Positions 10,198 to 51,839 of a DNA stretch of 64,000 nt are shown piece by piece. The stretch is taken from sequence record PQ863255.1. One strand, given 5' to 3'. Within the stretch, counting starts at the first letter, position 1. Each line of letters begins with the position of its first letter. A program made the position numbers and the translations under genes. Below the pieces are notes generated by a model, which ran no database searches, had not been told where the DNA came from, and saw only the letters and a program-made list of their open reading frames with translations. This DNA is from Escherichia phage Ptacy1532.

Positions 10198-10216
10198 GAC
10201 CTAAGTCCTGCCTTCT

Positions 10217-10225
10217 ATAATGTAT
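10217..10225 (+). promoter_or_regulatory. TAATGTATA motif about 40 nt upstream of the 1473-aa virion gene (candidate phage promoter element)
   Basis: CTATAATGTATATAGGGGG; same 9-mer recurs upstream of two minus-strand genes (20013-20023, 26428-26438). Confidence 0.35.
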
Positions 10226-10264
10226 ATAGGGGGTAGGACATTTTTATTTATAAAAGGAGACGTT

Positions 10265-13200
10265 ATGGCTAACATTAAACCGTGGGAAGAAGCTTCCAAA
10301 GCTCCTGCGTATCTGAATGCCTCTCCGGAGCAACAAGCTCAAATGAGAGAACAATATAAGGCAGCAGGTGGCTCTATTCCTGAGGAACAACCAGTAGCAC
10401 AACCACAACAAGAAGAACGTGGTGCTATAGGTGAGTTTGCTCAAGGTGTGTCAAATGCTCTTCAATCTGGTGGTGCAAATATTGCAGCTAGTGCTGCTAA
10501 AGGTATTGGTGGTTTAGTTGAGATTGGTGAGAATCTAGCTGGAACACAAACTAGTTATGGTAAGCGTATCCAAGAGAACTCTCAGAACCTTCTGAAAGAA
10601 CGTATGGATAAGATTGAGGATGGGGTTGGTAAAACTGTTGGTCAGTATGCTGGCGTTGCTGGTGATATTGGTATGACTGTTGCTAATCCATTGGCTGCTG
10701 CTGCTATCATCGCAGGTCGTGAGACAGGTCGTGCGTATGCAGACCAAACACCTGAAGAGGGAGAAGATAAATCTATTCTAGATGCGGCCTTAGTTGGTGG
10801 TGCTAACTATGCGGCTCAGAGAATCCTTCCGGGTGCTGTTGGTACAGCTGAGTCCACACTTGGACGTATCGGTCAGAACGTTGCTAGTAACGCAGTGGCT
10901 GGTGCTAAAGGTGGCGCTCTTGTAGGTGCTGCTGAAGCTCAGAACAAGCATGGAGATGATACAACCTTTGCTAATGTATTAGAGGGTGCTATCGAAGAAG
11001 GTGCTATGGGTGCTGCATTTGGTGGTGCAGTTGGTGGGGTTCATGGTTTGATTAGCCGTCCAGACTCTGCTGTCTTCAAGAATACTCCAGAGTATGCGAA
11101 GACTGATATTGCTGCTGATGACGAACTAATTCGCAGTGCTAAGAATATTGATGAATTGAAAGAAGCCTACTCTAAAGCTGAAACTGCTAACGCTGCTTCT
11201 GCTCTGAATCTTCTGGATGAGAATGGATTCCGTATTACAGATGCTGTTGCTGTAGATTCTCCTGCTGCTCAGCGTATTCTCAATACTGACCAAGCTCGCG
11301 CTGAGAAAGCTGCTTCCATTCAGAAAGAACATTCCAACATTCCGGGCCTTAACCCTTTAGCTTCTCCTGCTAAGACTCGTGGTAAAGCATTCGCTGATAA
11401 CGAGCACAACCAGAAGCAGGCTGTTGCTATGAAGGATGCAATGGCTGATTACACCAAAGACAACACGAAAGCTCTTACAGATGTTCTAGATAATCTAGAC
11501 CGTGAATTAACATCTCTCCGAGCTTCTGGTGATTTTACTGGTAGTCCGATTGATATTAAGAATCGTACACAAGCCGACCGTGACTTCATTGATGCTTACA
11601 AGACTTTCTACAACGAAGCAAATCGATTCAAAGCTCGTGATGGTGAAGACTTTAATAACTTTGTAGAGAAAGCTGCTGAACTACAGAAGATGGCTGATAA
11701 TGTTTCTCCAGAGATGAAGAAAGCTATTGGTGGGTTGAAGAAACTGAAAGGTATGCCTGAAGGTTTTAATCCTATCCAAGATGCTTACACTCTGAACAAT
11801 ACAGCTAAGTTCATGAGCAATCAAGATCGTGGTTGGACTTCCCTGACTGATGATGGATTCCGTGAGGCTTCTTCACCTAGTCTGGTAATGAATACTCTCG
11901 GTGCTGCTAAGTATGCTCTGAATCGCTTCTCTTCTCAGCGTGCTCGCTCTCAACGCGTTAAACAACAAGAGTCTAACAGTGAAGCTATCCGCTCTCTGGC
12001 TCGTGGTGATTTGGAAGTTGCTCGTGCTAAGTCTACTGCTGACGAAGCTCGTGCTAAGATGGAAGAAGAACCAGTTGTTGATGACATTAAATTTAAGACG
12101 CAAAATGACGTAGAAACCGAACCGGTTCGGGAGCCTTCTTCTAGTACTGTGACGGAAGAAAATCTTCCTTCTTCTACTCCTCAAGAAACCCCTCTTACAG
12201 CTCGTGATTTAGTTGCGCAAAGACGCGCTATCCGTCAGGCTGAACAGCGTCGCGCTGAAGAAGAGGCATTGGCTGCTCAAGAAGCTCCGGTCGAACAAGC
12301 TCCACAGGCTGAACCTCTCCCTGCTCGTAACCCTTTAGAGGAACGTCGTGCAATGGAACAGCAACGTGCTCAAGAAGAGGCCGCACAGGCTCCAGAACCC
12401 ACCGTAGAGGAACCAATAGTCAAAGCTGAGCCATTACCTGCCCGTGCTCCTAAAGCTCCTAAGGAGGCTGTACAGGACGTTAAACCGGCAAGTGGTGTAG
12501 AACGTTTAGCTGCTATGTCTAGTGCTGCTCGTCAGGCTACCAAAGATCGTGCAGAACGTTTTGCTCGTTCTCTGTACTCCAAGGCTGCTAAGGCTAAAGC
12601 TACTGCTGAAAACTTCTTGGCTTATAAAGGTGATCCTAAGGAATTGATGCGTCGTATTCGTCAGGAAGATAATGCTATCAACACTGAACGTCATGAAGAA
12701 ATGGCTCGTAACCAGCTGGCTTCTCAGCAAGGTATTGCTACTGCTAAGAACAACACTGTACGAACTAATTTTGCTGAATGGGTTAAAGAGCGTGGTCTGC
12801 CAGAAGACATTGCTACTAAGGCATTACGTGCTGAAGAGAAAGGTTTAGGTGGGAACGTAACTAACTTGGATAGTCTGAAACGTCGTGCTGAAAGGTTGTA
12901 TCAGAAGCAGCGTGAGGATGAGTTTGATAGACTGTACCAACAAGCTCTAGAAGAGAATAAAGCTTTCGATAACAAGAATGCTCCTAAGCTGGCTGACCAG
13001 AAGAAAGAGCTTCAGTCTGAGATTGATGCTTTGATTGATTCAGAACCTTTACGTCCTGCTCAGAAAGATGCTATGCGTAAGCTGATGAATGATTTTGTAG
13101 ATGGGAAGTTTAAATCTTCAGAGAAGGCTGGTAGGGAAGAGGCTTTGGAAGTTGGTCAGATGAAGGATATTTGGGATGGGTTTATTAATACCTATAACAG

Positions 13201-16671: not shown

Positions 16672-17198
16672 TTATTCTCCTAACAGCTTACGTATTCCAT
16701 TGCGGAAATTATCGTACTCTTCAGGGTATTCAAACCCACACTCAAGAAGAGCATAGTGAACAACCTTCAACAAATCCTGAACCTTATTCTTATCTTTGTG
16801 TCGATAAGCATATTTGATCATATTGGTTTGTTGGAAGTTCAACTGTGGGTTTGCATGATAAAACTCAACAGGTTGAATGATTTTAGATTCCGGGTTATAG
16901 TGTGCACCGCCAACCATAGTGTCTAAAGCTGGACTTCTTTTGCTGGTTTGTTTAGTTGTGGACTTAAAACTGACCACAGGAACAGAAGAGTAAACTATAT
17001 ACTCTTCCCCTACTGGTGGTTTTATTCTTAGTCCGCGCATGGCATATTCAATCTTCGTGTCAGTGGAACCTGAAGCAATCTCTTCAACAGACTTGCGATA
17101 GCTGTCAATAACTGCCCGTAGCATAGAGATTGTTTTGGTCATATCTTTTACTTTCTCATTAAGTACAACAACCTCTGATTCTTTGAAATCAAACAAAT

Positions 17199-17208
<10 letters not shown>
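16672..17208 (-). CDS. DUF3310-like phage protein
   Basis: VGGAHYN...IQPVEFYHAN...KYAYRHKDKNKVQDLLKVVHYA resembles the DUF3310 signature common in phages. Confidence 0.45.
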
Positions 17209-18492
<1,284 letters not shown>

Positions 18493-18737
18493 AATGCATC
18501 TCTTTATAAACAGTTTCCGTGTTCTTCTTCCAGTTAGATAAACCGGTAAGAACTCTCTGAGCAACTTCATCAGCTGCCCTACTTCTTTCAATCTCTAACT
18601 CTTGTTGATGCTTTTCTTTATCCAGATTGTTACTGTCTGTTCTGTACTCATTAAACTTCATGCCACCAAAGAATACAAGAGCTGAAAAGATAACAAATCC
18701 TAGATTATCACTTAAAGTGCTTTGCATATTGACTCCA

Positions 18738-18763
18738 ACGAAAAAAGCCACCCGGAGGTGGCT
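18738..18763 (-). terminator. Rho-independent terminator between the HNH gene and the spanin pair
   Basis: On the minus strand GCCACC-TCCG-GGTGGC followed by TTTTTT. Confidence 0.5.
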
Positions 18764-18785
18764 AAGCTATAACAAGGAGAGTTAT

Positions 18786-19199
18786 TTATATGAATTTCTG
18801 CATACCTTTGATACGAGGGTTATCATCACCAACTCTCGATTTACAGTAAGCGATAAAAGATTCAGTATTGAGGTTATCCTTTTGAGAACCCCACTGGAGA
18901 TTGTCTGCTCTATTGTTGCTCGGATTATCATCCAGATGCATAACAACAGCGTTAGGAAAAGGTTTCTCACCATGAAAAGTCTCACACACTAAGATATGAA
19001 TCCTTTTCTTAAACTTTCTTTTCCTGTTTACAAACACCATTCTTCCATCTTTCTCTCTATATCCGCTATATGGTTTTCCTACGAAAAGCCTAACTCCACC
19101 ATTATTCGTTATGGCTGTGAAAGGCTTAATCTTAACTCTACCAAAAGATGATACGGAAAGGAAATCATAATAGGGGTGATCTTTCCAGACTTCTTCCAC
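18786..19199 (-). CDS. HNH homing endonuclease
   Basis: HLDDNPSNNRADNLQW HNH motif; free-standing between a terminator and the next gene. Confidence 0.65.
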   Translation of the reverse strand: MEEVWKDHPYYDFLSVSSFGRVKIKPFTAITNNGGVRLFVGKPYSGYREKDGRMVFVNRKRKFKKRIHILVCETFHGEKPFPNAVVMHLDDNPSNNRADNLQWGSQKDNLNTESFIAYCKSRVGDDNPRIKGMQKFI

Positions 19200-19208
19200 T
19201 ATCTATCC

Positions 19209-19955
19209 TCAAAATGGGCTATCGTTGTCGTCTTCGTAAGTAGAAGCAGGCTCTTTATCAATCGTAGGGATTGAAGGAGTAGCTTCTTTCTGTTCTGTTT
19301 CAGAAGCACGAGTAATTTCACGACCAGCCAGAGGCATGTTCTTAGCGTCATTAGCTTGAGTAAGCAGGTTGCGCTGGAACGGGAACATCAGTTGATAGGA
19401 TGCTACGTTCTCATCGGTTTCAGCATACGGTTCGAAGAATACCAGAGGACTACGAGCTTCACCAACTGCTGCACGATATTTGGTTGGGATTGGAGAAATG
19501 GTCTTGATGGAGTTTTTAACTTCACCAGCTTTGTTAGTGTAAGAGTTAACCAGAATGTTAACAGGCTGGCCTAACAGAACATCCTTGAACCAAGACAGAT
19601 CACCTTTCAGTGCTTGAATACTTGGGTCAATCATCTTGCAAAGATCAAGAATACCAGAGTTCTTAGCTCGTGGGTTTACATCATAGCTCTTGAACTGGCA
19701 AGCCGGACGTGGTTCTAATGCCTTACCATCGGAATCTTTACCAGTAGCATCAACACCAATCAGCTCGAAAGCTAAATCCATACGGAAAGCTGGATTCTTA
19801 GGAGTTACTGCTTTGGTCTTCGGGTCAATCCAAGGGTCACGATTGTGAACACCCAAACCTACTACACGAACGATACGTGCTTCGTACTCACCATCAGGGA
19901 TTACATCGTAGTTGGATTTACGGGAAGCAGTTGCGATAGTTGGAATCATAGACAT
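19209..19955 (-). CDS. hypothetical protein with acidic C-terminal tail ending in Phe (T7 gp2.5-like ssDNA-binding protein candidate)
   Basis: C-terminus ...TYEDDNDSPF resembles the acidic, Phe-terminated tail of T7-type SSBs; body not recognisably similar. Confidence 0.35.
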   Translation of the reverse strand: MSMIPTIATASRKSNYDVIPDGEYEARIVRVVGLGVHNRDPWIDPKTKAVTPKNPAFRMDLAFELIGVDATGKDSDGKALEPRPACQFKSYDVNPRAKNSGILDLCKMIDPSIQALKGDLSWFKDVLLGQPVNILVNSYTNKAGEVKNSIKTISPIPTKYRAAVGEARSPLVFFEPYAETDENVASYQLMFPFQRNLLTQANDAKNMPLAGREITRASETEQKEATPSIPTIDKEPASTYEDDNDSPF

Positions 19956-20012
19956 ATTTTAATTTCCTTATTTAATTTGAAAGATTGTTGCTCTCTTTGA
20001 GCGGTTATGTAT

Positions 20013-20023
20013 AGTATACATTA
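20013..20023 (-). promoter_or_regulatory. TAATGTATACT motif about 58 nt upstream of gene 19209..19955 (candidate phage promoter element)
   Basis: Minus strand reads GCGTAATGTATACTATACAT; same core as 26428-26438 and 10217-10225. Confidence 0.35.
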
Positions 20024-20086
20024 CGCTTATACCGATAAGAGTACTATATAATATAAGTATCTTTGGTAGTAGATATAACACACTAG

Positions 20087-20095
20087 TAATGTATA
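20087..20095 (+). promoter_or_regulatory. TAATGTATA motif in plus orientation inside the 415-nt intergenic region (no plus-strand gene nearby)
   Basis: CTAGTAATGTATATATTG; orientation opposite to the flanking genes. Confidence 0.25.
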
Positions 20096-20371
20096 TATTG
20101 TATAGCTGATAAAGTTATTGCAGGCTTGTATATTGGGCAATTCACAGAATCCCTTGCAAGTACCGAAGGGCAGGAGCCACCTGCGAGATAAAAATAGAGA
20201 ATTAAGGAATCCTTGATTTAGGTTGTAGGGACTCCTAGGGACTTTGATTCTCTATTTAAAAGAATATTAATTACTTATTACCTAAATAATTAACTAACTT
20301 ACTTAAACCAAATTCAAGAATAATAGATAAAAAGATTATTCCTAAGAAAGCTAAAAAGTAAAGGATATAAG

Positions 20372-20536
20372 TTACCATTCAAGTAAACCTTTAAAGTTAG
20401 TTTGTTCTACTATCCTCTGATAACGAAGATTAGAATCAGCTTGTTTCTTTAACATCTCATTATATTGATCTCTGATAGAGTCTTTATATACTACAGGTTC
20501 TTTAAATAATGAGATCTTGTTCTTTTCTTCTTTCAT
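20372..20536 (-). CDS. small hypothetical protein
   Basis: Track ORF 20372..20620 trimmed to an internal ATG; start uncertain, overlaps the 3' end of the phosphoesterase gene. Confidence 0.25.
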   Translation of the reverse strand: MKEEKNKISLFKEPVVYKDSIRDQYNEMLKKQADSNLRYQRIVEQTNFKGLLEW

Positions 20537-21005
20537 CAAAGACCTTCCTAATCTCTTGCAGAGAAACAGCTTTATAGTTAATTTGCTCCATTGATGTACA
20601 GAAATATCTCCAATCATCAATTACATGGTTATGAGTATGAGCATAAATATTAAACTTCCCTCTCATCTCGTCAGTGTGAATAGGAATATGAGTTACCCAA
20701 AACTCTTTATATTTATAATCACCAGAGATTCTACGGAATACTTTCATCATATCGGGGAGAAGTTCTAACCTGTCATGGTTCCCCAAGACCAGATGCTTCT
20801 CTCCTTTTACTTCAGCGATGATATCAAGGGCATACTTTTCAAACACCCAATCACCGGTAAAGAAGATTTTATCACGCTTAGTTACATGATCAAATGCAGC
20901 TAGGATTGCTTTGTCATGCTCTTCAATGTTTTTAAATTGCTTACGAAAACTACAGATGTTGCGATGACCTAAGTGACCATCTCCTGCAAAATAAACTTCA
21001 GCCAT
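20502..21005 (-). CDS. calcineurin-like metallophosphoesterase
   Basis: Motifs GDGHLGH, FFTGDWV, LGNHD (D.H / GD / GNHD signature). Confidence 0.65.
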   Translation of the reverse strand: MAEVYFAGDGHLGHRNICSFRKQFKNIEEHDKAILAAFDHVTKRDKIFFTGDWVFEKYALDIIAEVKGEKHLVLGNHDRLELLPDMMKVFRRISGDYKYKEFWVTHIPIHTDEMRGKFNIYAHTHNHVIDDWRYFCTSMEQINYKAVSLQEIRKVFDERRKEQDLII

Positions 21006-22717: not shown

Positions 22718-24562
22718 TTAGTGCGTATGCATCCAGTTTAGTCCAATCTGACAATCAGAAGCCAGAGGACATTCCATGTTCAAATATTCACCCGCTTTCT
22801 TAACACAAAGCTCAGTGTGTTCTTTGAGTTTCTGTACATCATTACGATTCACTGAGAATTGGCCCTCATCGTGCATATCAATTACCTTAGCACAACGAAC
22901 CCTATCCCTCTCAATCCACTTGTTTAGGAACATCATAGCATATTTCATAACAACAGCACCAGCACATTGCAGGAGAGTGTTAAGTGCTTTATGAACCATA
23001 ACCTTACCAGTGGCATCTCGTCTCATTGTAATCTTACGACCATCAACACCAATCAAGTATCCTTGAGCAGCTTTCTCTGTCATACGATCAATGAGGATTG
23101 CAATACATGGGTTCTCTGCCAAGAAACGTGCTCGCATCACTGAACCTTCGTCAGCCCCACCACCTACAATTGAACCAAGCTTAGCGTCTCCAGCACCGTA
23201 GTTGAATGCATAGATAAACGTTTTAGCATTGTCACGAGTAGGAAGACCAGCAAGTTTCTGGTTGTGGGAGTGGATATCGCCTTCAAGGAGGATATCACGA
23301 TACATAATAGCAGAAGCTAAACCACGTTCTGCCAGAGCTTTCTTAGCTGGATTGTTTTCTTCTATTGCTTCAGCAAGCATATCCCTACACTCTTTAATGA
23401 GGTAGTGAGCGAGCATACGAAGCTCAAGTCCAGAACCATCATACCCTAAGAATACTTCTTTACCAGCGGGTATGTAATATTTGTAAGCACCTACAGGTTT
23501 GTCTTTCTTCCCCGGCTTACCTTTCTCGTAAATTACGTTAGTACCTTTTCGTATATAACAACCATCAGGAACAACGTTAGTAATAACGAAAGGACGAGAA
23601 TGATCACTGTCTGAGTTATAGTCAGACTCAAACAGACTGCGACACTCGTGACCAAACAGACCACGGGAGGGAATATTAACCACGATACGATGTTTGAATC
23701 GAAAAGTCGGAGTAGCGCAGCTGTTAGCTTCTGCCGAAAGTTTACCATCTTCGCGTTCCTTTGCTATGAGTCCACTGATAAGACCTAGCCTGTGAGCCGC
23801 TACAACGCGTCTCTTAAGCAAACTTCCGACACTCCCTAGCTCACCCCCTAGCCCCTCTTCAAGAGTCTCCTCGAGGTTTGTAGGAGCTGTAGGCCACTTG
23901 TTTGATGTGGCTAGTGCTTTCTTAATCTCATCAAACGTTACAGGATTACGACGATTAGGGTTCAATCCCAAACCAAATACGTAAGCCTTCATATAGTTCT
24001 TAGTCTTAAACCTGAAATGCTTTTCTAAGAACTTCTTAATATCAGCGTCAACCATCTCGGCTGTCTGCTTCTGTTTAGTATTGCCTCGCATCCAAGCAGT
24101 GTACCATGCTTGATACGTTCCATACTTTCTCATATCTTTCTTAATTTCGAAAGTATTCCAAGGCTTCTTAGATACATTAAACTCTGGAGGAAGAAAGCCC
24201 TCATCCATAAGAGCTTCTTTAACTCGAGCATCTTTCGATGGGTCAAAGTCTACGTATTCAACACAGGTGAAAGCTCCACCAATATCTTCTCTTTTCAGCC
24301 CAACCCTATCACAATAGGCTTGAGGCCACTTCTGTAAAGCTCCAGACTTCTTAAACGGCTTCATATAAGTAGAGCCGTCTAATCTCATCTTAGGTAAGAG
24401 AGGAATCAACTCTCTGTCAATATTAACAATAATCTCTTTAAGGAGGTGAACATACCACCGAGCATTTCTTCGGTTGAAACTCACTCCGTGCTTTGCTTGC
24501 TTAGAGATTATATCAGCGACAGTCATCTCTGTCAAAAATGGAAGAGCGTCCGGGTTGCTCAC
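22718..24562 (-). CDS. DNA polymerase (family A, T7 gp5-like) polymerase domain
   Basis: SGLELRMLAHYL and GDIHSHNQKLAGLPTRDNAKTFIYAFNYGAGDAKLGSIVGG match T7 DNA polymerase motifs A/B; no 3'-5' exonuclease domain in this ORF. Confidence 0.9.
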   Translation of the reverse strand: MSNPDALPFLTEMTVADIISKQAKHGVSFNRRNARWYVHLLKEIIVNIDRELIPLLPKMRLDGSTYMKPFKKSGALQKWPQAYCDRVGLKREDIGGAFTCVEYVDFDPSKDARVKEALMDEGFLPPEFNVSKKPWNTFEIKKDMRKYGTYQAWYTAWMRGNTKQKQTAEMVDADIKKFLEKHFRFKTKNYMKAYVFGLGLNPNRRNPVTFDEIKKALATSNKWPTAPTNLEETLEEGLGGELGSVGSLLKRRVVAAHRLGLISGLIAKEREDGKLSAEANSCATPTFRFKHRIVVNIPSRGLFGHECRSLFESDYNSDSDHSRPFVITNVVPDGCYIRKGTNVIYEKGKPGKKDKPVGAYKYYIPAGKEVFLGYDGSGLELRMLAHYLIKECRDMLAEAIEENNPAKKALAERGLASAIMYRDILLEGDIHSHNQKLAGLPTRDNAKTFIYAFNYGAGDAKLGSIVGGGADEGSVMRARFLAENPCIAILIDRMTEKAAQGYLIGVDGRKITMRRDATGKVMVHKALNTLLQCAGAVVMKYAMMFLNKWIERDRVRCAKVIDMHDEGQFSVNRNDVQKLKEHTELCVKKAGEYLNMECPLASDCQIGLNWMHTH

Positions 24563-25774: not shown

Positions 25775-26068
25775 CTAGAGACGAAGCCAAGTTTGATAGT
25801 CAGCTTCAGTGTAATGGTTGTTCCGAGAGTTGTTTTTCATCTCCTTGAGGGTAGCTCTTAGGTCGATGTTATGCTCTCTCCTTGTTCTATTCGGGTCTGT
25901 ATCTTCTAATAGATGGGAGTGATCACTACAAGAGTAGTGCTTATAGTGGTCCCTGTACCCCCTATTTGGAGAATACTTGGTCATTAAAGTTGCAACTCTT
26001 TTTACACCCTCTGCTTTACAGAATTTACAGTAAGTGTGAATTGTACATCTTTTTGTTTCTGCTGACAC
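25775..26068 (-). CDS. Cys/His-rich small protein (possible zinc-binding)
   Basis: CTIHTYCKFCK ... HYKHYSCSDHSH. Confidence 0.45.
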   Translation of the reverse strand: MSAETKRCTIHTYCKFCKAEGVKRVATLMTKYSPNRGYRDHYKHYSCSDHSHLLEDTDPNRTRREHNIDLRATLKEMKNNSRNNHYTEADYQTWLRL

Positions 26069-26078
26069 TATAACCTCT

Positions 26079-26393
26079 TTATGAGCTTAAAGCTCCTTTG
26101 CGTGCTCCAGCTGCTTTTCCAGCTCGATCACCACTTTTGCCGCCGTTTGAACGGTTTGAGCTGACTGATTCAACACGTAAATTGCTTGACGCATTAGAAC
26201 CTCCAGACTTGACAGCTCGTTTGTGTCCAACATCTTTACCTCTGACAGCAGCTTTTCCATCGCGCTTTTCAACGATGCGACGTGCACGGTGGCGCTGAGC
26301 ATCTCCGCTCTTGCTCCCAACGCCTGTCTCACCACGGGCAATTGCGGTACGTCTTTCTTGTGCATAATCTCTCTTTCCTACATGGTCTGCCAT
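26079..26393 (-). CDS. highly basic Gly/Lys/Arg-rich protein
   Basis: Strong AAGGAG RBS 7 nt from ATG; chosen over the overlapping frame 26087..26365. Confidence 0.5.
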   Translation of the reverse strand: MADHVGKRDYAQERRTAIARGETGVGSKSGDAQRHRARRIVEKRDGKAAVRGKDVGHKRAVKSGGSNASSNLRVESVSSNRSNGGKSGDRAGKAAGARKGALSS

Positions 26394-26427
26394 TTAGAAC
26401 TCCTTAATATATCAGTGTACACTAAGG

Positions 26428-26438
26428 AGTATACATTA
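26428..26438 (-). promoter_or_regulatory. TAATGTATACT motif about 35 nt upstream of gene 26079..26393 (candidate phage promoter element)
   Basis: Minus strand reads CTATAATGTATACTCCTTAG. Confidence 0.35.
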
Positions 26439-26447
26439 TAGATGATG

Positions 26448-41881: not shown

Positions 41882-42985
41882 TTACAGCGCTTGCTCTAAC
41901 TGATTTTCCAGATGGTCTGGAATGTACCCTGTGATATTGTTATCACTATGACCTGACTCACGCAGTAAGTCAAAAATAGCACGGATACGTTGTTCTGGAG
42001 CGTGTCTTACTTGAGACAGGTCAGTTGTACGAAGCATAACCAGAATCTCTTGGTACAAGTTGTTAGCGTTCCCTCGGACATACCCAAGGAATCCGTAGAA
42101 GTCTGACATAAGACGCAAGTCAACAAGAACATCTCCGTTGGAGTTGGTTCGACGTAAACGAATACGACCAGACTGTTCTACTTCATGAGAACGACAATAC
42201 AAAACATCACGGGCCATACAATAGCCTGAATGCAAATCCGATTCATCCAGATTGTAATCCAGAGGAAGGTAAGGAAGCATTGGGGCAAATCGTACAGTAT
42301 TTAAGTGCTCAATAAACTGATCATTGCTCATATCTGCGTTATCTAGAGCCAGCTTCTTCAACATCAAGAAGCGGTTAACCAGATTGAGAAGTTGACCACG
42401 TTTCCACTTAGGCTCACTGATACGGAACTCAATTGAACCGTATTGGGCAAGTGGCAGAAGGTTCAGAGATGTATATTTATCCCATGAACGAACCAGACGG
42501 TTGAAGAATTCTTCACCATCGTAGTTAAATGCGTCAGAGGCATTCATTACCTGTGCTTGTACCACTGCAAACGCAGGGCAGAAATTGCTACGGTAACGAT
42601 GGTAGCCTGAACACTTGAACAACATCTTTTCGTAGAAGGTCCAAGCAAGGATGGTCTTCTTGAGGATATTACTATCAGCATCCCTCATATCCATATGAAC
42701 GTGAGTAGAGCAACGCCAAGTCCCCTCGGCGTGCGATTCAGCTACTGCTTCACTCAGGTTGTTGATAGCGTCTAACAACTCCTGTCCGTTGTAAGGTCGT
42801 GAACATACCATTTCACAACCATTACGCAGGGAACCATCCTCTGTGCAATCCCACATATCTGCTTCGATATGTTCAGAACCTTCGAGTTCAAGTTCAATAC
42901 CGACACCGCACTGAAGTGCAATTGAACTATGCGCCTCAGTTAAACGACCTTCTCGATATCCAAAAGTTTGCGCTACAGTTGTCAT
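41882..42985 (-). CDS. glutamine-synthetase/GCS2-like COOH-NH2 ligase (amidoligase) candidate
   Basis: N-terminal GVGIELELEG resembles the G.E.E metal-binding strand of GS-like amidoligases; weaker than the other cluster assignments. Confidence 0.5.
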   Translation of the reverse strand: MTTVAQTFGYREGRLTEAHSSIALQCGVGIELELEGSEHIEADMWDCTEDGSLRNGCEMVCSRPYNGQELLDAINNLSEAVAESHAEGTWRCSTHVHMDMRDADSNILKKTILAWTFYEKMLFKCSGYHRYRSNFCPAFAVVQAQVMNASDAFNYDGEEFFNRLVRSWDKYTSLNLLPLAQYGSIEFRISEPKWKRGQLLNLVNRFLMLKKLALDNADMSNDQFIEHLNTVRFAPMLPYLPLDYNLDESDLHSGYCMARDVLYCRSHEVEQSGRIRLRRTNSNGDVLVDLRLMSDFYGFLGYVRGNANNLYQEILVMLRTTDLSQVRHAPEQRIRAIFDLLRESGHSDNNITGYIPDHLENQLEQAL

Positions 42986-46594: not shown

Positions 46595-46957
46595 CTATTG
46601 GTTTTTAATCAACTCAATCGACTTACGGATATAAAGGATATCTCGGAAATTTCGATAGTTGTTCATAAATTGATGCTTCTGGAAAGTAGCTTCTTCCAGA
46701 GCTTTCTTTGCTTCTGCGTAGTTTTTACGGGCAAGATGTACAACCCGCTCGGGTAACACATTTGCATGACGGATGACATACTTGTGAGCTTTCATGTTGC
46801 TTTGCTCACGAGCAATCTTACCTTTAGCAACTTTGATACCATTTGCAATCCAAGCAAGTTCTTGCTCAAGCTCATCGTTGGACATTCCACCGAGATTTGA
46901 TGCAACCTTGTTCAGAGTTTCAATATTAACGTTGCCCTTAATGGGACGTGTATTCAT
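46595..46957 (-). CDS. hypothetical protein
   Basis: 120-aa ORF. Confidence 0.45.
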   Translation of the reverse strand: MNTRPIKGNVNIETLNKVASNLGGMSNDELEQELAWIANGIKVAKGKIAREQSNMKAHKYVIRHANVLPERVVHLARKNYAEAKKALEEATFQKHQFMNNYRNFRDILYIRKSIELIKNQ

Positions 46958-51764: not shown

Positions 51765-51839
51765 TGGCGTTCCCTCGTGGAATCGAACCACGAATAAGAG
51801 CTTAGAAGGCTCCAGTTATATCCGTTTAACTAAGGGAAC
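51765..51839 (-). tRNA. tRNA-Arg (anticodon UCU)
   Basis: Cloverleaf folded by hand: acceptor GTTCCCT/AGGGAAC, D-stem GTTA/TAAC, anticodon stem GGAGC/GCTCT with loop CTTCTAA, T-arm CGTGG-TTCGATT-CCACG, encoded CCA. Confidence 0.8.

What the first reader, a model, noticed from the sequence alone, without database searches (positions are those of the whole stretch)
20013..20095. Recurrent TAATGTATA motif upstream of middle/late genes on both strands
The 9-mer TAATGTATA occurs in gene-proximal position upstream of three genes: 10217-10225 (plus, 40 nt before the 1473-aa virion gene), 20013-20023 (minus, before 19209..19955) and 26428-26438 (minus, before 26079..26393). A fourth copy in plus orientation at 20087-20095 has no plus-strand gene downstream. 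From memory, a TAATGTATA-like element has been reported as the promoter motif for the phiEco32 phage sigma factor; I could not check this here. The window encodes an ECF-like sigma factor (17588..18232) that could recognise it.
Basis: partly seen in the sequence, partly recalled or inferred. Interest (0 to 1): 0.5.

Follow-up and report, generated by a model that had tools for sequence, protein, structure and literature searches.

The report
phiEco32-type gp36 promoters plus orphan copy
The repeated TAATGTATA is the already characterised promoter element read by the phage-encoded sigma factor gp36 of phiEco32-like coliphages, so most of the finding is known; the one copy that faces no gene looks like an undescribed seventh promoter that would make a small, structured, non-coding RNA.

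Summary
The window is a Kuravirus (phiEco32-like coliphage; up to 99.8% identical to vB_EcoP_WFI101126). Three copies sit at the homologues of the published gp36-holoenzyme promoters P26, P40 and P58. The window's sigma factor is 213/214 identical to gp36, and the activator gp79 is 82/82 identical.

The plus-strand orphan copy is not among the six published promoters. It carries the same -35 block as P68 (TTGGTAGTAGATAT) at identical spacing, including the -37G and -34A that gp36 contacts in the cryo-EM structure. Both blocks are kept in 26 of 27 relatives from three genera, while the spacer and flanks vary. The predicted start, A20102, opens a 5' hairpin supported by compensatory changes. It is followed by about 155 nt of conserved, non-coding sequence that folds better on the plus strand. 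I read it as a seventh gp36 promoter for a non-coding RNA of unknown role. No transcript data exist.

The parts
10218..10226 (+). P26 homologue: gp36 -10-like element TAATGTATA (-15..-7). Predicted +1 is G10233; the start codon of the 1473-aa late gene is at 10265.
   Evidence: Exact hit. The site and 35-nt upstream context are identical to phiEco32 26014-26022. It lies upstream of the phi32_26 homologue. P26 is listed as TAATGTATA in PMC8948821 Table S3.
20015..20023 (-). P40 homologue: TAATGTATA on the minus strand. Predicted +1 is A20008; the start codon of the phi32_40 homologue is at 19955.
   Evidence: phiEco32 36632-36640. The SU10 S2 table lists the same sequence between CDS37 and CDS38. 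Conserved in all 27 relatives.
20064..20076 (+). -35-region block TGGTAGTAGATAT (-38..-26) of the orphan plus-strand promoter, identical to the block of P68. G20065 is -37 and A20068 is -34.
   Evidence: The 12-mer TGGTAGTAGATA occurs only here and at P68 in the window. The spacing to the -10 element is the same in both. TGGTAGTA lies exactly 23 nt upstream of the motif in 27/27 relatives. gp36 CTD contacts -37G and -34A in the P68 open complex (PMC12276001).
20087..20095 (+). Orphan ('Pplus') gp36 -10-like element TAATGTATA. Predicted +1 is A20102. It is divergent from P40, with the two predicted starts 94 bp apart.
   Evidence: Present in phiEco32 itself at 36704-36712. Kept in 26/27 relatives that were anchored on an independent downstream 35-mer. 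Absent from the published lists of six promoters.
20102..20118 (+). 5'-terminal hairpin of the predicted plus-strand RNA (ATAGCT-GATAA-AGTTAT), beginning at the predicted +1.
   Evidence: Six haplotypes, 97% of cells paired, 2 of 6 pairs with compensatory changes. Covariation score is 0.444 against 0.166 shuffled (2/500), and slid controls pair at 25-50%. The G.U pair in the commonest haplotype is valid only on the plus strand.
20102..20258 (+). Predicted non-coding transcript of about 157 nt (about 185 nt in relatives with the alternative central module): 5' hairpin, closing helix UUGCAGG/CCUGCGA around a swappable module, and a long 3' hairpin.
   Evidence: Plus-strand fold is -45.8 kcal/mol (z -2.1) against -35.3 (z -1.05) for the minus strand. 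Relatives with the other module give z -3.2 and -3.3. Consensus fold. The ORF is broken in relatives. No Rfam family matches. The intergenic region is at least 99% identical in 49/98 phage records, against 2/98 for the surrounding 4 kb.
20192..20257 (.). Long inverted repeat (AAATAGAGAAT...ATTCTCTATTT). On the minus strand it is followed by TTTTTAT, so it is an intrinsic-terminator-like end of the upstream operon. On the plus strand it is the 3' hairpin of the predicted RNA, without a U-tract.
   Evidence: Sequence, inverted repeat I1, folds. The stem is invariant in relatives.
26430..26438 (-). P58 homologue: TAATGTATA. Predicted +1 is A26423; the start codon of the phi32_58 homologue is at 26393.
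   Evidence: (phiEco32 42937-42945).
31938..31946 (-). Predicted +1 is A31931; the start codon of the phi32_68 homologue is at 31897.
   Evidence: One-mismatch hit. Context matches phiEco32 46862-46870. P68 is listed as aAATGTATA in PMC8948821 Table S3. P68 is the promoter in the cryo-EM open complex.
31957..31969 (-). -35-region block TGGTAGTAGATAT of P68.
   Evidence: The SU10 S2 table prints ttggtagtagatat...aaatgtata for this promoter.
17588..18232 (-). Gene for the phage sigma factor (gp36 orthologue) that reads the motif. It lies in the operon downstream of P40.
   Evidence: 213/214 identical to phiEco32 gp36. Residues E79, H80, Y83, R84, W90, S91, S94, N95, Y186 and R187, named in PMC12276001, are all present. 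PDB 9M7Y chain F matches at E 4e-145. Weak Pfam Sigma70_r2 match.
37877..38125 (-). gp79 orthologue: inhibitor of the sigma-70 holoenzyme and activator of the gp36 holoenzyme.
   Evidence: 82/82 identical to phi32_79. Function from PMC12276001.

Best explanation
TAATGTATA is the -10-like element (-15 to -7) of promoters used by E. coli core RNA polymerase carrying the phage sigma factor gp36, assisted by gp79. The gp36 N-terminal domain reads -14A, -13A, -12T and -11G, and melting starts at -11. The C-terminal domain touches the -35 region, and RNA starts 7 nt after the last A.

In this window the sites at 10218(+), 20015(-), 26430(-) and 31938(-, AAATGTATA) are the orthologues of the published promoters P26 (late) and P40, P58 and P68 (middle). 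This part is shown by homology to experimentally mapped promoters (probability about 0.97).

The plus-strand copy at 20087 is inferred to be a seventh, undescribed gp36 promoter of the P68 type, back to back with P40 (probability that it is an active promoter about 0.8). From A20102 it would produce a non-coding, structured plus-strand RNA. That RNA has a 5'-terminal stabilising hairpin, a core with a swappable module, and a 3' hairpin that is the complement of the minus-strand terminator of the upstream operon (probability about 0.55).

Its role is not established. My preferred reading is a middle/late-phase regulatory or cis-antisense RNA. Its 3' half can pair with the 3' ends of, and with read-through from, the upstream minus-strand transcripts, and so insulate the P40 operon, which carries the sigma and spanin genes.
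For: Identity of the phage: the window is up to 99.8% identical to Kuravirus WFI101126, and all 98 hits are phiEco32-like phages.

Published promoters: there are six gp36 promoters with consensus tAATGTAtA and starts 6-8 nt downstream. P6 is TAATGTAgA, P13, P26, P40 and P58 are TAATGTATA, and P68 is aAATGTATA. My scan of the phiEco32 genome recovers exactly these six, plus the plus-strand copy at 36704-36712.

Position: the window copies lie upstream of the phi32_26, _40, _58 and _68 homologues.

Factors: gp36 is 213/214 identical and gp79 is 82/82 identical. The contact residues and bases are given. With TAATGTATA registered at -15..-7, the published -37G and -34A fall on G and A of the P68 block.

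Orphan copy: its 14-mer TTGGTAGTAGATAT at -39..-26 is identical to that of P68, while the spacer is unrelated. The 12-mer is unique to these two sites. Across 27 relatives (19 distinct sequences, three genera plus metagenomes) chosen by an anchor outside the promoter, the footprint is invariant for TGGTAGTA.AT and TAAT(G)TATA with invariant spacing. The -25..-16 and -53..-40 stretches vary, and the distance to P40 varies from 61 to 192 nt.

RNA: the 5' hairpin starts at the predicted +1 and shows covariation. G.U pairs and folding energy favour the plus strand. The region is non-coding and is more conserved than the flanking genes.
Against: There is no transcript evidence for the plus strand, and no kuravirus transcriptome was found. 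I could not read Pavlova et al. 2012, so an unlisted mention of this site cannot be excluded.

Outside the 5' hairpin the RNA region is invariant, so its structure is untested by covariation. The z-score of the window's own RNA is modest (-2.1).

No plus-strand intrinsic terminator follows, so the 3' end and length are guesses. One metagenomic relative carries -11G>A. The module is absent from the more distant relatives L007-L009.

No complementarity of 12 nt or more to other mRNAs in the window was found, so a trans target is unsupported. A weak sigma-70-like match (TAGATA-18-TATATT) overlaps the site.
Confidence: 0.85

Rival explanations
1. The orphan plus-strand promoter serves DNA replication rather than gene expression. 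Like the T7 promoters phiOL and phiOR and the phi1.1A/B primary origin (my own knowledge of T7, not tested here), a phage-specific promoter with no gene of its own would supply a primer RNA, or transcriptional activation, for an origin next to an AT-rich stretch.
For: The promoter has no downstream gene. It is followed, after the hairpin, by the most AT-rich part of the window: GC is 0.365-0.376 at 19-22 kb. It sits near the middle of the linear genome (phiEco32 36.7 of 77.6 kb). It is paired divergently with P40, which would underwind the DNA between them. The phage has a T7-like primase-helicase and DNA polymerase.
Against: Cumulative GC skew shows no extremum at 20 kb; it turns at the 14-16 kb gene-strand switch. 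There are no iterons or other repeats. The conserved, covarying 5' hairpin and the structured 155 nt are not needed for a primer. No origin has been mapped in this phage group in the papers I could search.
Confidence: 0.12
2. The plus-strand copy binds the gp36 holoenzyme, or is conserved for a DNA-level or minus-strand reason, without making a functional RNA. Examples are a polymerase sink or roadblock that reinforces termination in front of P40, or a relic duplication of P68 kept by linkage to P40.
For: Function is inferred from sequence only. The downstream region outside the hairpin is invariant, so it could be constrained as DNA. The site is next to the minus-strand terminator.
Against: A relic would not keep two separate blocks at fixed spacing while the spacer, the flanks and the distance to P40 all change, including a 140-nt insertion and a module swap nearby. 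The hairpin covaries and starts exactly at the predicted +1. G.U pairs favour a plus-strand RNA.
Confidence: 0.08
3. The orphan site is used by the host sigma-70 holoenzyme (an early promoter), not by gp36.
For: A sigma-70-like match, TAGATA-18-TATATT (9 of 12), overlaps it. The SU10 authors read the equivalent P68 sequence as having sigma-70 -35 and -10 regions.
Against: Such 9/12 matches are no more frequent than in shuffles (7 found, 7.1 expected). The invariant bases are those of the gp36 element (AATG at -14..-11) and of the P68 -35 block, and P68 is experimentally gp36-dependent.
Confidence: 0.05
4. The recurrence of TAATGTATA is chance in an AT-rich phage genome.
For: One-mismatch variants are not enriched.
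Against: Four exact copies against 0.73 expected, with 0/100 shuffles reaching 4. All are intergenic (p about 4e-4), lie at positions orthologous to mapped promoters, and are conserved across genera.
Confidence: 0.01

Closest known systems
phiEco32 gp36-dependent middle and late promoters (P6, P13, P26, P40, P58, P68; Pavlova et al. 2012, Lavysh et al. 2022, cryo-EM open complex PDB 9M7Y)
   Same: Same 9-mer, same sigma factor (213/214) and same activator gp79 (82/82). Four window sites are at orthologous positions. The orphan copy has the same -10 element and the same -35 block and spacing as P68.
   Different: The orphan copy is on the opposite strand to all surrounding genes, has no ORF downstream, and is not in any published list of the six promoters. 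Guzina and Djordjevic searched only the gene-sense strand of intergenic regions, so they could not have found it.
T7 orphan promoters phiOL/phiOR and the phi1.1A/B origin promoters (own knowledge)
   Same: A phage-specific promoter with no gene of its own, next to AT-rich DNA.
   Different: That system uses a single-subunit RNA polymerase. Here there is no origin mapping, and the transcribed region is a conserved structured RNA rather than merely AT-rich DNA.
Small phage antisense RNAs from promoters that face the flow of transcription: lambda oop, P22 sar (own knowledge)
   Same: A short non-coding transcript made against the direction of the neighbouring operon and overlapping its 3' end or terminator. 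The terminator hairpin is shared by both strands.
   Different: Those RNAs are made by the host sigma-70 holoenzyme in temperate phages and end at an intrinsic terminator. Here the promoter is specific to the phage sigma factor, the phage is virulent, no plus-strand terminator is evident, and about 90 nt of the RNA lies outside any minus-strand transcript.
T4 late promoters read by gp55 (TATAAATA, a -10-type element only; own knowledge)
   Same: A phage-encoded divergent sigma factor redirects host core polymerase to a short AT-rich -10-like element upstream of late genes.
   Different: gp36 has a sigma-4-like C-terminal domain that contacts the -35 region. It is helped by gp79 rather than by a sliding clamp with gp33.

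Membership tests
phiEco32 gp36-holoenzyme promoters | Consensus element tAATGTAtA (core AATGTA centred at -11.5) | tested here: met
   Exact TAATGTATA at 10218(+), 20015(-), 20087(+) and 26430(-), and AAATGTATA at 31938(-). Published sequences are in PMC8948821 Table S3.
phiEco32 gp36-holoenzyme promoters | Cognate sigma factor gp36, with its DNA-reading residues, encoded by the same genome | tested here: met
   Window 17588..18232(-) is 213/214 identical to gp36. E79, H80, Y83, R84, W90, S91, S94, N95, Y186 and R187 are present.
phiEco32 gp36-holoenzyme promoters | Location shortly upstream of a middle or late gene, at positions orthologous to P26, P40, P58 and P68 | tested here: met
   Met for four sites: predicted 5' UTRs are 30-53 nt, upstream of the phi32_26/40/58/68 homologues. 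Not met for the orphan copy at 20087(+), which has no downstream gene.
phiEco32 gp36-holoenzyme promoters | -35-region contacts seen in the P68 open complex (-37G, -34A) | tested here: met
   P68 and the orphan copy share TGGTAGTAGATAT with G at -37 and A at -34. P26, P40 and P58 have A at -37 and A at -34, and all five have T at -38.
phiEco32 gp36-holoenzyme promoters | Transcription initiates 6-8 nt downstream, dependent on the gp36 holoenzyme and stimulated by gp79 | not testable with these tools
   This needs in vitro transcription or 5'-end mapping. The gp79 orthologue is present. Purines lie at every predicted +1.
phiEco32 gp36-holoenzyme promoters | Conservation of the site across phiEco32-subgroup phages | tested here: met
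   Orphan copy: 26/27 relatives with invariant spacing of the two blocks. P40 copy: 27/27. The six published sites are conserved in six phages.
Described RNA families (Rfam 15) | Covariance-model match at or near the gathering score | tested here: not met
   Only tRNA-Arg was found in the window. In 19950-20400 the best hits score 15-16 bits against thresholds of 39-50 bits, with E of 2.4-9.
Structured non-coding RNA (generic) | Compensatory base changes that support the helices | tested here: inconclusive
   The 5' hairpin is supported. All other helices are invariant in the 13-27 sequences available, so they are neither supported nor contradicted.
Transcription-primed replication origin (T7 type) | Mapped initiation of DNA synthesis downstream of a phage-specific promoter next to AT-rich DNA | not testable with these tools
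   AT-rich DNA is present. There is no GC-skew extremum and there are no iterons. No mapping data exist.

The most novel reading that the evidence does not exclude
Kuraviruses, Suseptimaviruses and Nieuwekanaalviruses, including the model phage phiEco32, carry a seventh gp36-dependent promoter that nobody has annotated. It makes a conserved, structured non-coding RNA of about 155-190 nt from the strand opposite to all neighbouring genes, with two alternative interchangeable central modules. This would be the first non-coding RNA of this phage group. It could act as an antisense insulator in front of the sigma-factor operon, or as a primer or activator of a mid-genome replication origin.
Probability: 0.5. 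Interest if true: 0.55.

Novelty: new member of a known kind. Interest (0 to 1): 0.38.

Why it matters
The main motif adds nothing new. It re-identifies a well-studied promoter class in another kuravirus isolate, which is useful only for annotation: it gives the temporal classes of the genes downstream of P26, P40, P58 and P68.

The orphan copy matters more. phiEco32 is the structural and biochemical model for phage sigma appropriation (gp36 and gp79), and its promoter set has been taken as six. A seventh, strictly conserved promoter that shares the -35 block of P68 would give a second natural template for testing the newly seen -35 contacts. It would also point to an unrecognised non-coding RNA, or an origin element, in a group of phages now widely used in therapy collections. 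One in vitro transcription reaction and one Northern blot would test it.

Tried and rejected
1. Primary paper. I tried to read Pavlova 2012 and Savalia 2008, but they are not held. I relied on later papers from the same and other laboratories.

2. Coding potential. The 32-aa plus-strand ORF 20118-20216 is rejected: phiEco32 has a stop after 9 codons, SU7-type phages are frameshifted, and type-B phages have unrelated sequence.

3. Known RNA family. None matches.

4. Trans target. No complementarity of 12 nt or more to other window transcripts.

5. Origin signatures. No skew extremum and no iterons.

6. Plus-strand terminator. None found up to 33 kb that is convincing.

7. Other plus-strand look-alikes. 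TTATGTATA at 20005 and TATTGTATA at 20096 are not conserved in relatives, so I rejected them as sites.

8. A joint hairpin between the two inverted copies (repeat I2). Rejected because their distance varies from 61 to 192 nt.

9. Wider sampling. IMG/VR gave only the same five contigs, and the metagenome scan gave six more.

10. Deeper relatives. L007-L009, whose phi32_40 homologue is 67-70% identical, lack the motif pair and the RNA region. This agrees with the different promoter specificity of 7-11-type sigma factors.

11. Host or plasmid origin of the RNA. No match in 5,426 E. coli genomes. The alternative module occurs only in 12 kuravirus records.

Full report
**Observation.** TAATGTATA occurs exactly four times in the window: 10218-10226 (+), 20015-20023 (-), 20087-20095 (+) and 26430-26438 (-). 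Shuffles expect 0.73, and none of 100 reaches four. Allowing one mismatch gives 21 hits against 19.5 expected, so only the exact copies stand out. All four lie between annotated genes of the near-identical GenBank record. With a conservative mask 14% of the window is non-coding, which gives p of about 4e-4 for four of four.

**What the window is.** Region 17000-21000 is 99.8% identical to Escherichia phage vB_EcoP_WFI101126 (Kuravirus, Gordonclarkvirinae). All 98 matching records are phiEco32-like coliphages. Other parts of the window are 96-97.6% identical to the same phage, so this is a close but distinct isolate. The ORF at 17588..18232 (-) is 213/214 identical to phiEco32 gp36, whose structure is PDB 9M7Y chain F. 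The ORF at 37877..38125 (-) is 82/82 identical to gp79.

**What the motif is.**
- The literature is explicit. The gp36 holoenzyme uses six phiEco32 promoters with the single consensus tAATGTAtA, 6-8 nt upstream of the start sites. P6, P13 and P26 are late; P40, P58 and P68 are middle (PMC8948821; PMC4331800; PMC4281155; PMC12276001).
- Table S3 of PMC8948821 gives P6 as TAATGTAgA, P13, P26, P40 and P58 as TAATGTATA, and P68 as aAATGTATA. All are conserved in NJ01, ECBP2, KBNP1711, SU10 and 172-1.
- My scan of the phiEco32 genome finds exactly these sites, at 1677, 9101, 26014, 36632(-), 42937(-) and 46862(-).
- The window copies at 10218, 20015 and 26430 lie upstream of the phi32_26, _40 and _58 homologues and share their flanks with the phiEco32 sites.
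- P6 and P13 lie to the left of the window.

**Mechanism, from the 2025 cryo-EM open complex on P68.**
- The gp36 N-terminal domain reads -14A, -13A, -12T and -11G. The bubble opens at -11.
- The C-terminal domain contacts -37G and -34A, and these contacts are essential.
- This puts TAATGTATA at -15..-7 and +1 seven nt after its last A.
- With that register the predicted starts are 10233, 20008(-), 26423(-) and 31931(-). All are purines, 30-53 nt before the start codons.
- The published -37G and -34A fall on G and A of the P68 upstream block.
- All five window sites have T at -38 and A at -34. Only 2 of the 16 other one-mismatch hits do.

**The orphan plus-strand copy (20087-20095).**
- This is the only part not already explained. 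It exists in phiEco32 itself (36704-36712) but is absent from every published list. Guzina and Djordjevic searched only the gene-sense strand of intergenic regions, which excludes it by design.
- It is not a bare 9-mer. The 14-mer TTGGTAGTAGATAT at -39..-26 is identical to that of P68 at identical spacing, while the 10-nt spacer is unrelated. The 12-mer TGGTAGTAGATA occurs only at these two places in the window.
- I collected 27 relatives (19 distinct sequences) from Kuravirus, Suseptimavirus and Nieuwekanaalvirus, one IMG/VR contig and six metagenome contigs. I located them by a 35-mer anchor downstream of, and independent of, the promoter.
- In these relatives TGGTAGTA always lies exactly 23 nt upstream of the 9-mer. 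TAATGTATA is intact in 26 of 27; one metagenome contig has -11G>A.
- Meanwhile -25..-16 and -53..-40 vary freely. The distance to the P40 copy ranges from 61 to 192 nt because of an insertion in the myPSH2311 group.
- This is the footprint expected of a two-block promoter. It is not the footprint of a relic or of a hairpin between the two inverted copies.

**What it would transcribe.**
- The predicted +1 is A20102. The first 17 nt (ATAGCT-GATAA-AGTTAT) form a hairpin that begins at +1.
- Among six haplotypes 97% of cells pair. Two of six pairs show compensatory changes (C-G, U-A and A-U at one pair; U-A and G-C at another). The covariation score is 0.444 against 0.166 in shuffles (2/500), and slid controls pair at 25-50%.
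- The commonest haplotype has a G.U pair that would be a C.A mismatch on the minus strand.
- Downstream, a helix UUGCAGG/CCUGCGA encloses a central module that exists in two unrelated versions: 39 nt here, and about 65 nt in MN05, ECBP2 and myPSH2311-type phages.
- The RNA then runs into a long hairpin (20192-20257). On the minus strand this hairpin is followed by a T-run and looks like the terminator of the upstream operon.
- The plus strand folds better than the minus strand: -45.8 kcal/mol (z -2.1) against -35.3 (z -1.05). Type-B versions give z -3.2 and -3.3.
- Apart from the 5' hairpin all helices are invariant, so covariation neither supports nor contradicts them.
- The only ORF (32 aa, TTG start) is stopped after 9 codons in phiEco32 and frameshifted in SU7-type phages.
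- No Rfam family matches. No homologue exists in 5,426 E. coli genomes.
- The 315-nt spacer is at least 99% identical in 49 of 98 phage records. Only 2 of 98 reach that level for the surrounding 4 kb.

**What it might do.** This is inference.
- The 3' third of the RNA is complementary to the terminator and 3' end of the upstream minus-strand transcripts and to any read-through. The promoter fires head-on into that operon, immediately upstream of P40, whose operon contains the sigma gene and spanin genes. A cis-antisense or insulating role in the middle phase is my preferred reading.
- About 90 nt of conserved structure lies outside any expected minus-strand transcript, so the RNA may have a function of its own.
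- I found no candidate trans target in the window.
- The main rival is a T7-style origin promoter. The site is an orphan phage-specific promoter, next to the most AT-rich DNA of the window, near the middle of the linear genome. There is no skew extremum and there are no iterons.
- No plus-strand terminator is evident, so the length of the RNA is uncertain.
- The module is absent from relatives whose phi32_40 homologue is only 67-70% identical. This agrees with the different promoter specificity of 7-11-type phages.

**Limits.** There are no transcript data for any kuravirus in the searchable library. The primary 2012 paper could not be read, so "undescribed" rests on later papers from the same laboratory and others.

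**Verdict.** The motif and its link to the phage sigma factor are real and already known. The orphan copy is very probably a seventh promoter of the same class (about 0.8) and plausibly the source of a new non-coding RNA (about 0.55). Interest is moderate: it is a testable addition to a model system, not a new kind of system.

Noticed in passing
window 20122-20160 (+), compared with L013 (MN05), L014 (ECBP2), L019 (myPSH2311): The central part of the conserved spacer exists in two unrelated versions: 39 nt here, and about 65 nt with its own UCUCUCA/UGAGAGA hairpin in 12 kuravirus records. The versions are exchanged precisely between the conserved TTGCA and ACCGRAAGG. This looks like a modular swap inside a structured RNA.
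   Followed up: partly
L019 (myPSH2311) 601-1057, and metagenome loci L032-L036: In the myPSH2311 group about 140 nt are inserted between the P40 and orphan promoter elements. By my own reading of the sequence, not by a tool, the insert carries a roughly 46-codon minus-strand ORF whose ATG overlaps the orphan promoter's -38 region. There the -35 block is TGGTAGTATATC instead of TGGTAGTAGATA.
   Followed up: no
window 24507-24535 (-): A perfect sigma-70 consensus promoter (TTGACA, 17 nt, TATAAT, with an upstream TG; 12 of 12) lies inside the first 55 nt of the DNA-polymerase-like gene (22718..24562, minus strand). This suggests an internal or alternative start for downstream expression.
   Followed up: no
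window 10215-10226 (+) and 26430-26441 (-): At P26 and P58 the gp36 element is preceded by TA, giving TATAATGTATA, which contains a perfect sigma-70 -10 hexamer. P58 also has TTAGCA 16 nt upstream (10 of 12 to the sigma-70 consensus). This fits published statements that middle genes can be read by both holoenzymes.
   Followed up: partly
phiEco32 (L021) 34877-34885 (-), inside phi32_37: TAATGTTTA is directly preceded by TAAGACCTA, the block that sits at -38..-30 of the late promoters P13 and P26. It lies just upstream of the sigma gene. The window lacks this macro-domain gene (phi32_37), so the site is absent here.
   Followed up: no
window 18786-19199 (-): An HNH homing-endonuclease ORF sits between the phi32_40 homologue and the spanin gene, inside the P40 operon. 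It is absent at this position in phiEco32, so it is a mobile insertion.
   Followed up: no
window 51765-51839 (-): There is a single tRNA-Arg(TCT) gene in the early region, as in phiEco32.
   Followed up: yes
window 31915-31931 (-) and 26414-26423 (-): By eye, the transcripts predicted from P68 (ACAAUAAGAAUUUGU) and P58 (AGUGUACACU) also begin with a short self-complementary stretch at +1, like the orphan transcript. A 5'-terminal hairpin may be a common feature of gp36 transcripts. I did not test this statistically.
   Followed up: no
L032 (metagenome contig ERZ1034915 NODE-75), orphan promoter: This is the only relative with a changed core: TAATATATA, which is -11G>A, a base whose mutation compromises P68 activity in vitro. 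It may be a natural loss-of-function variant or an assembly error.
   Followed up: no
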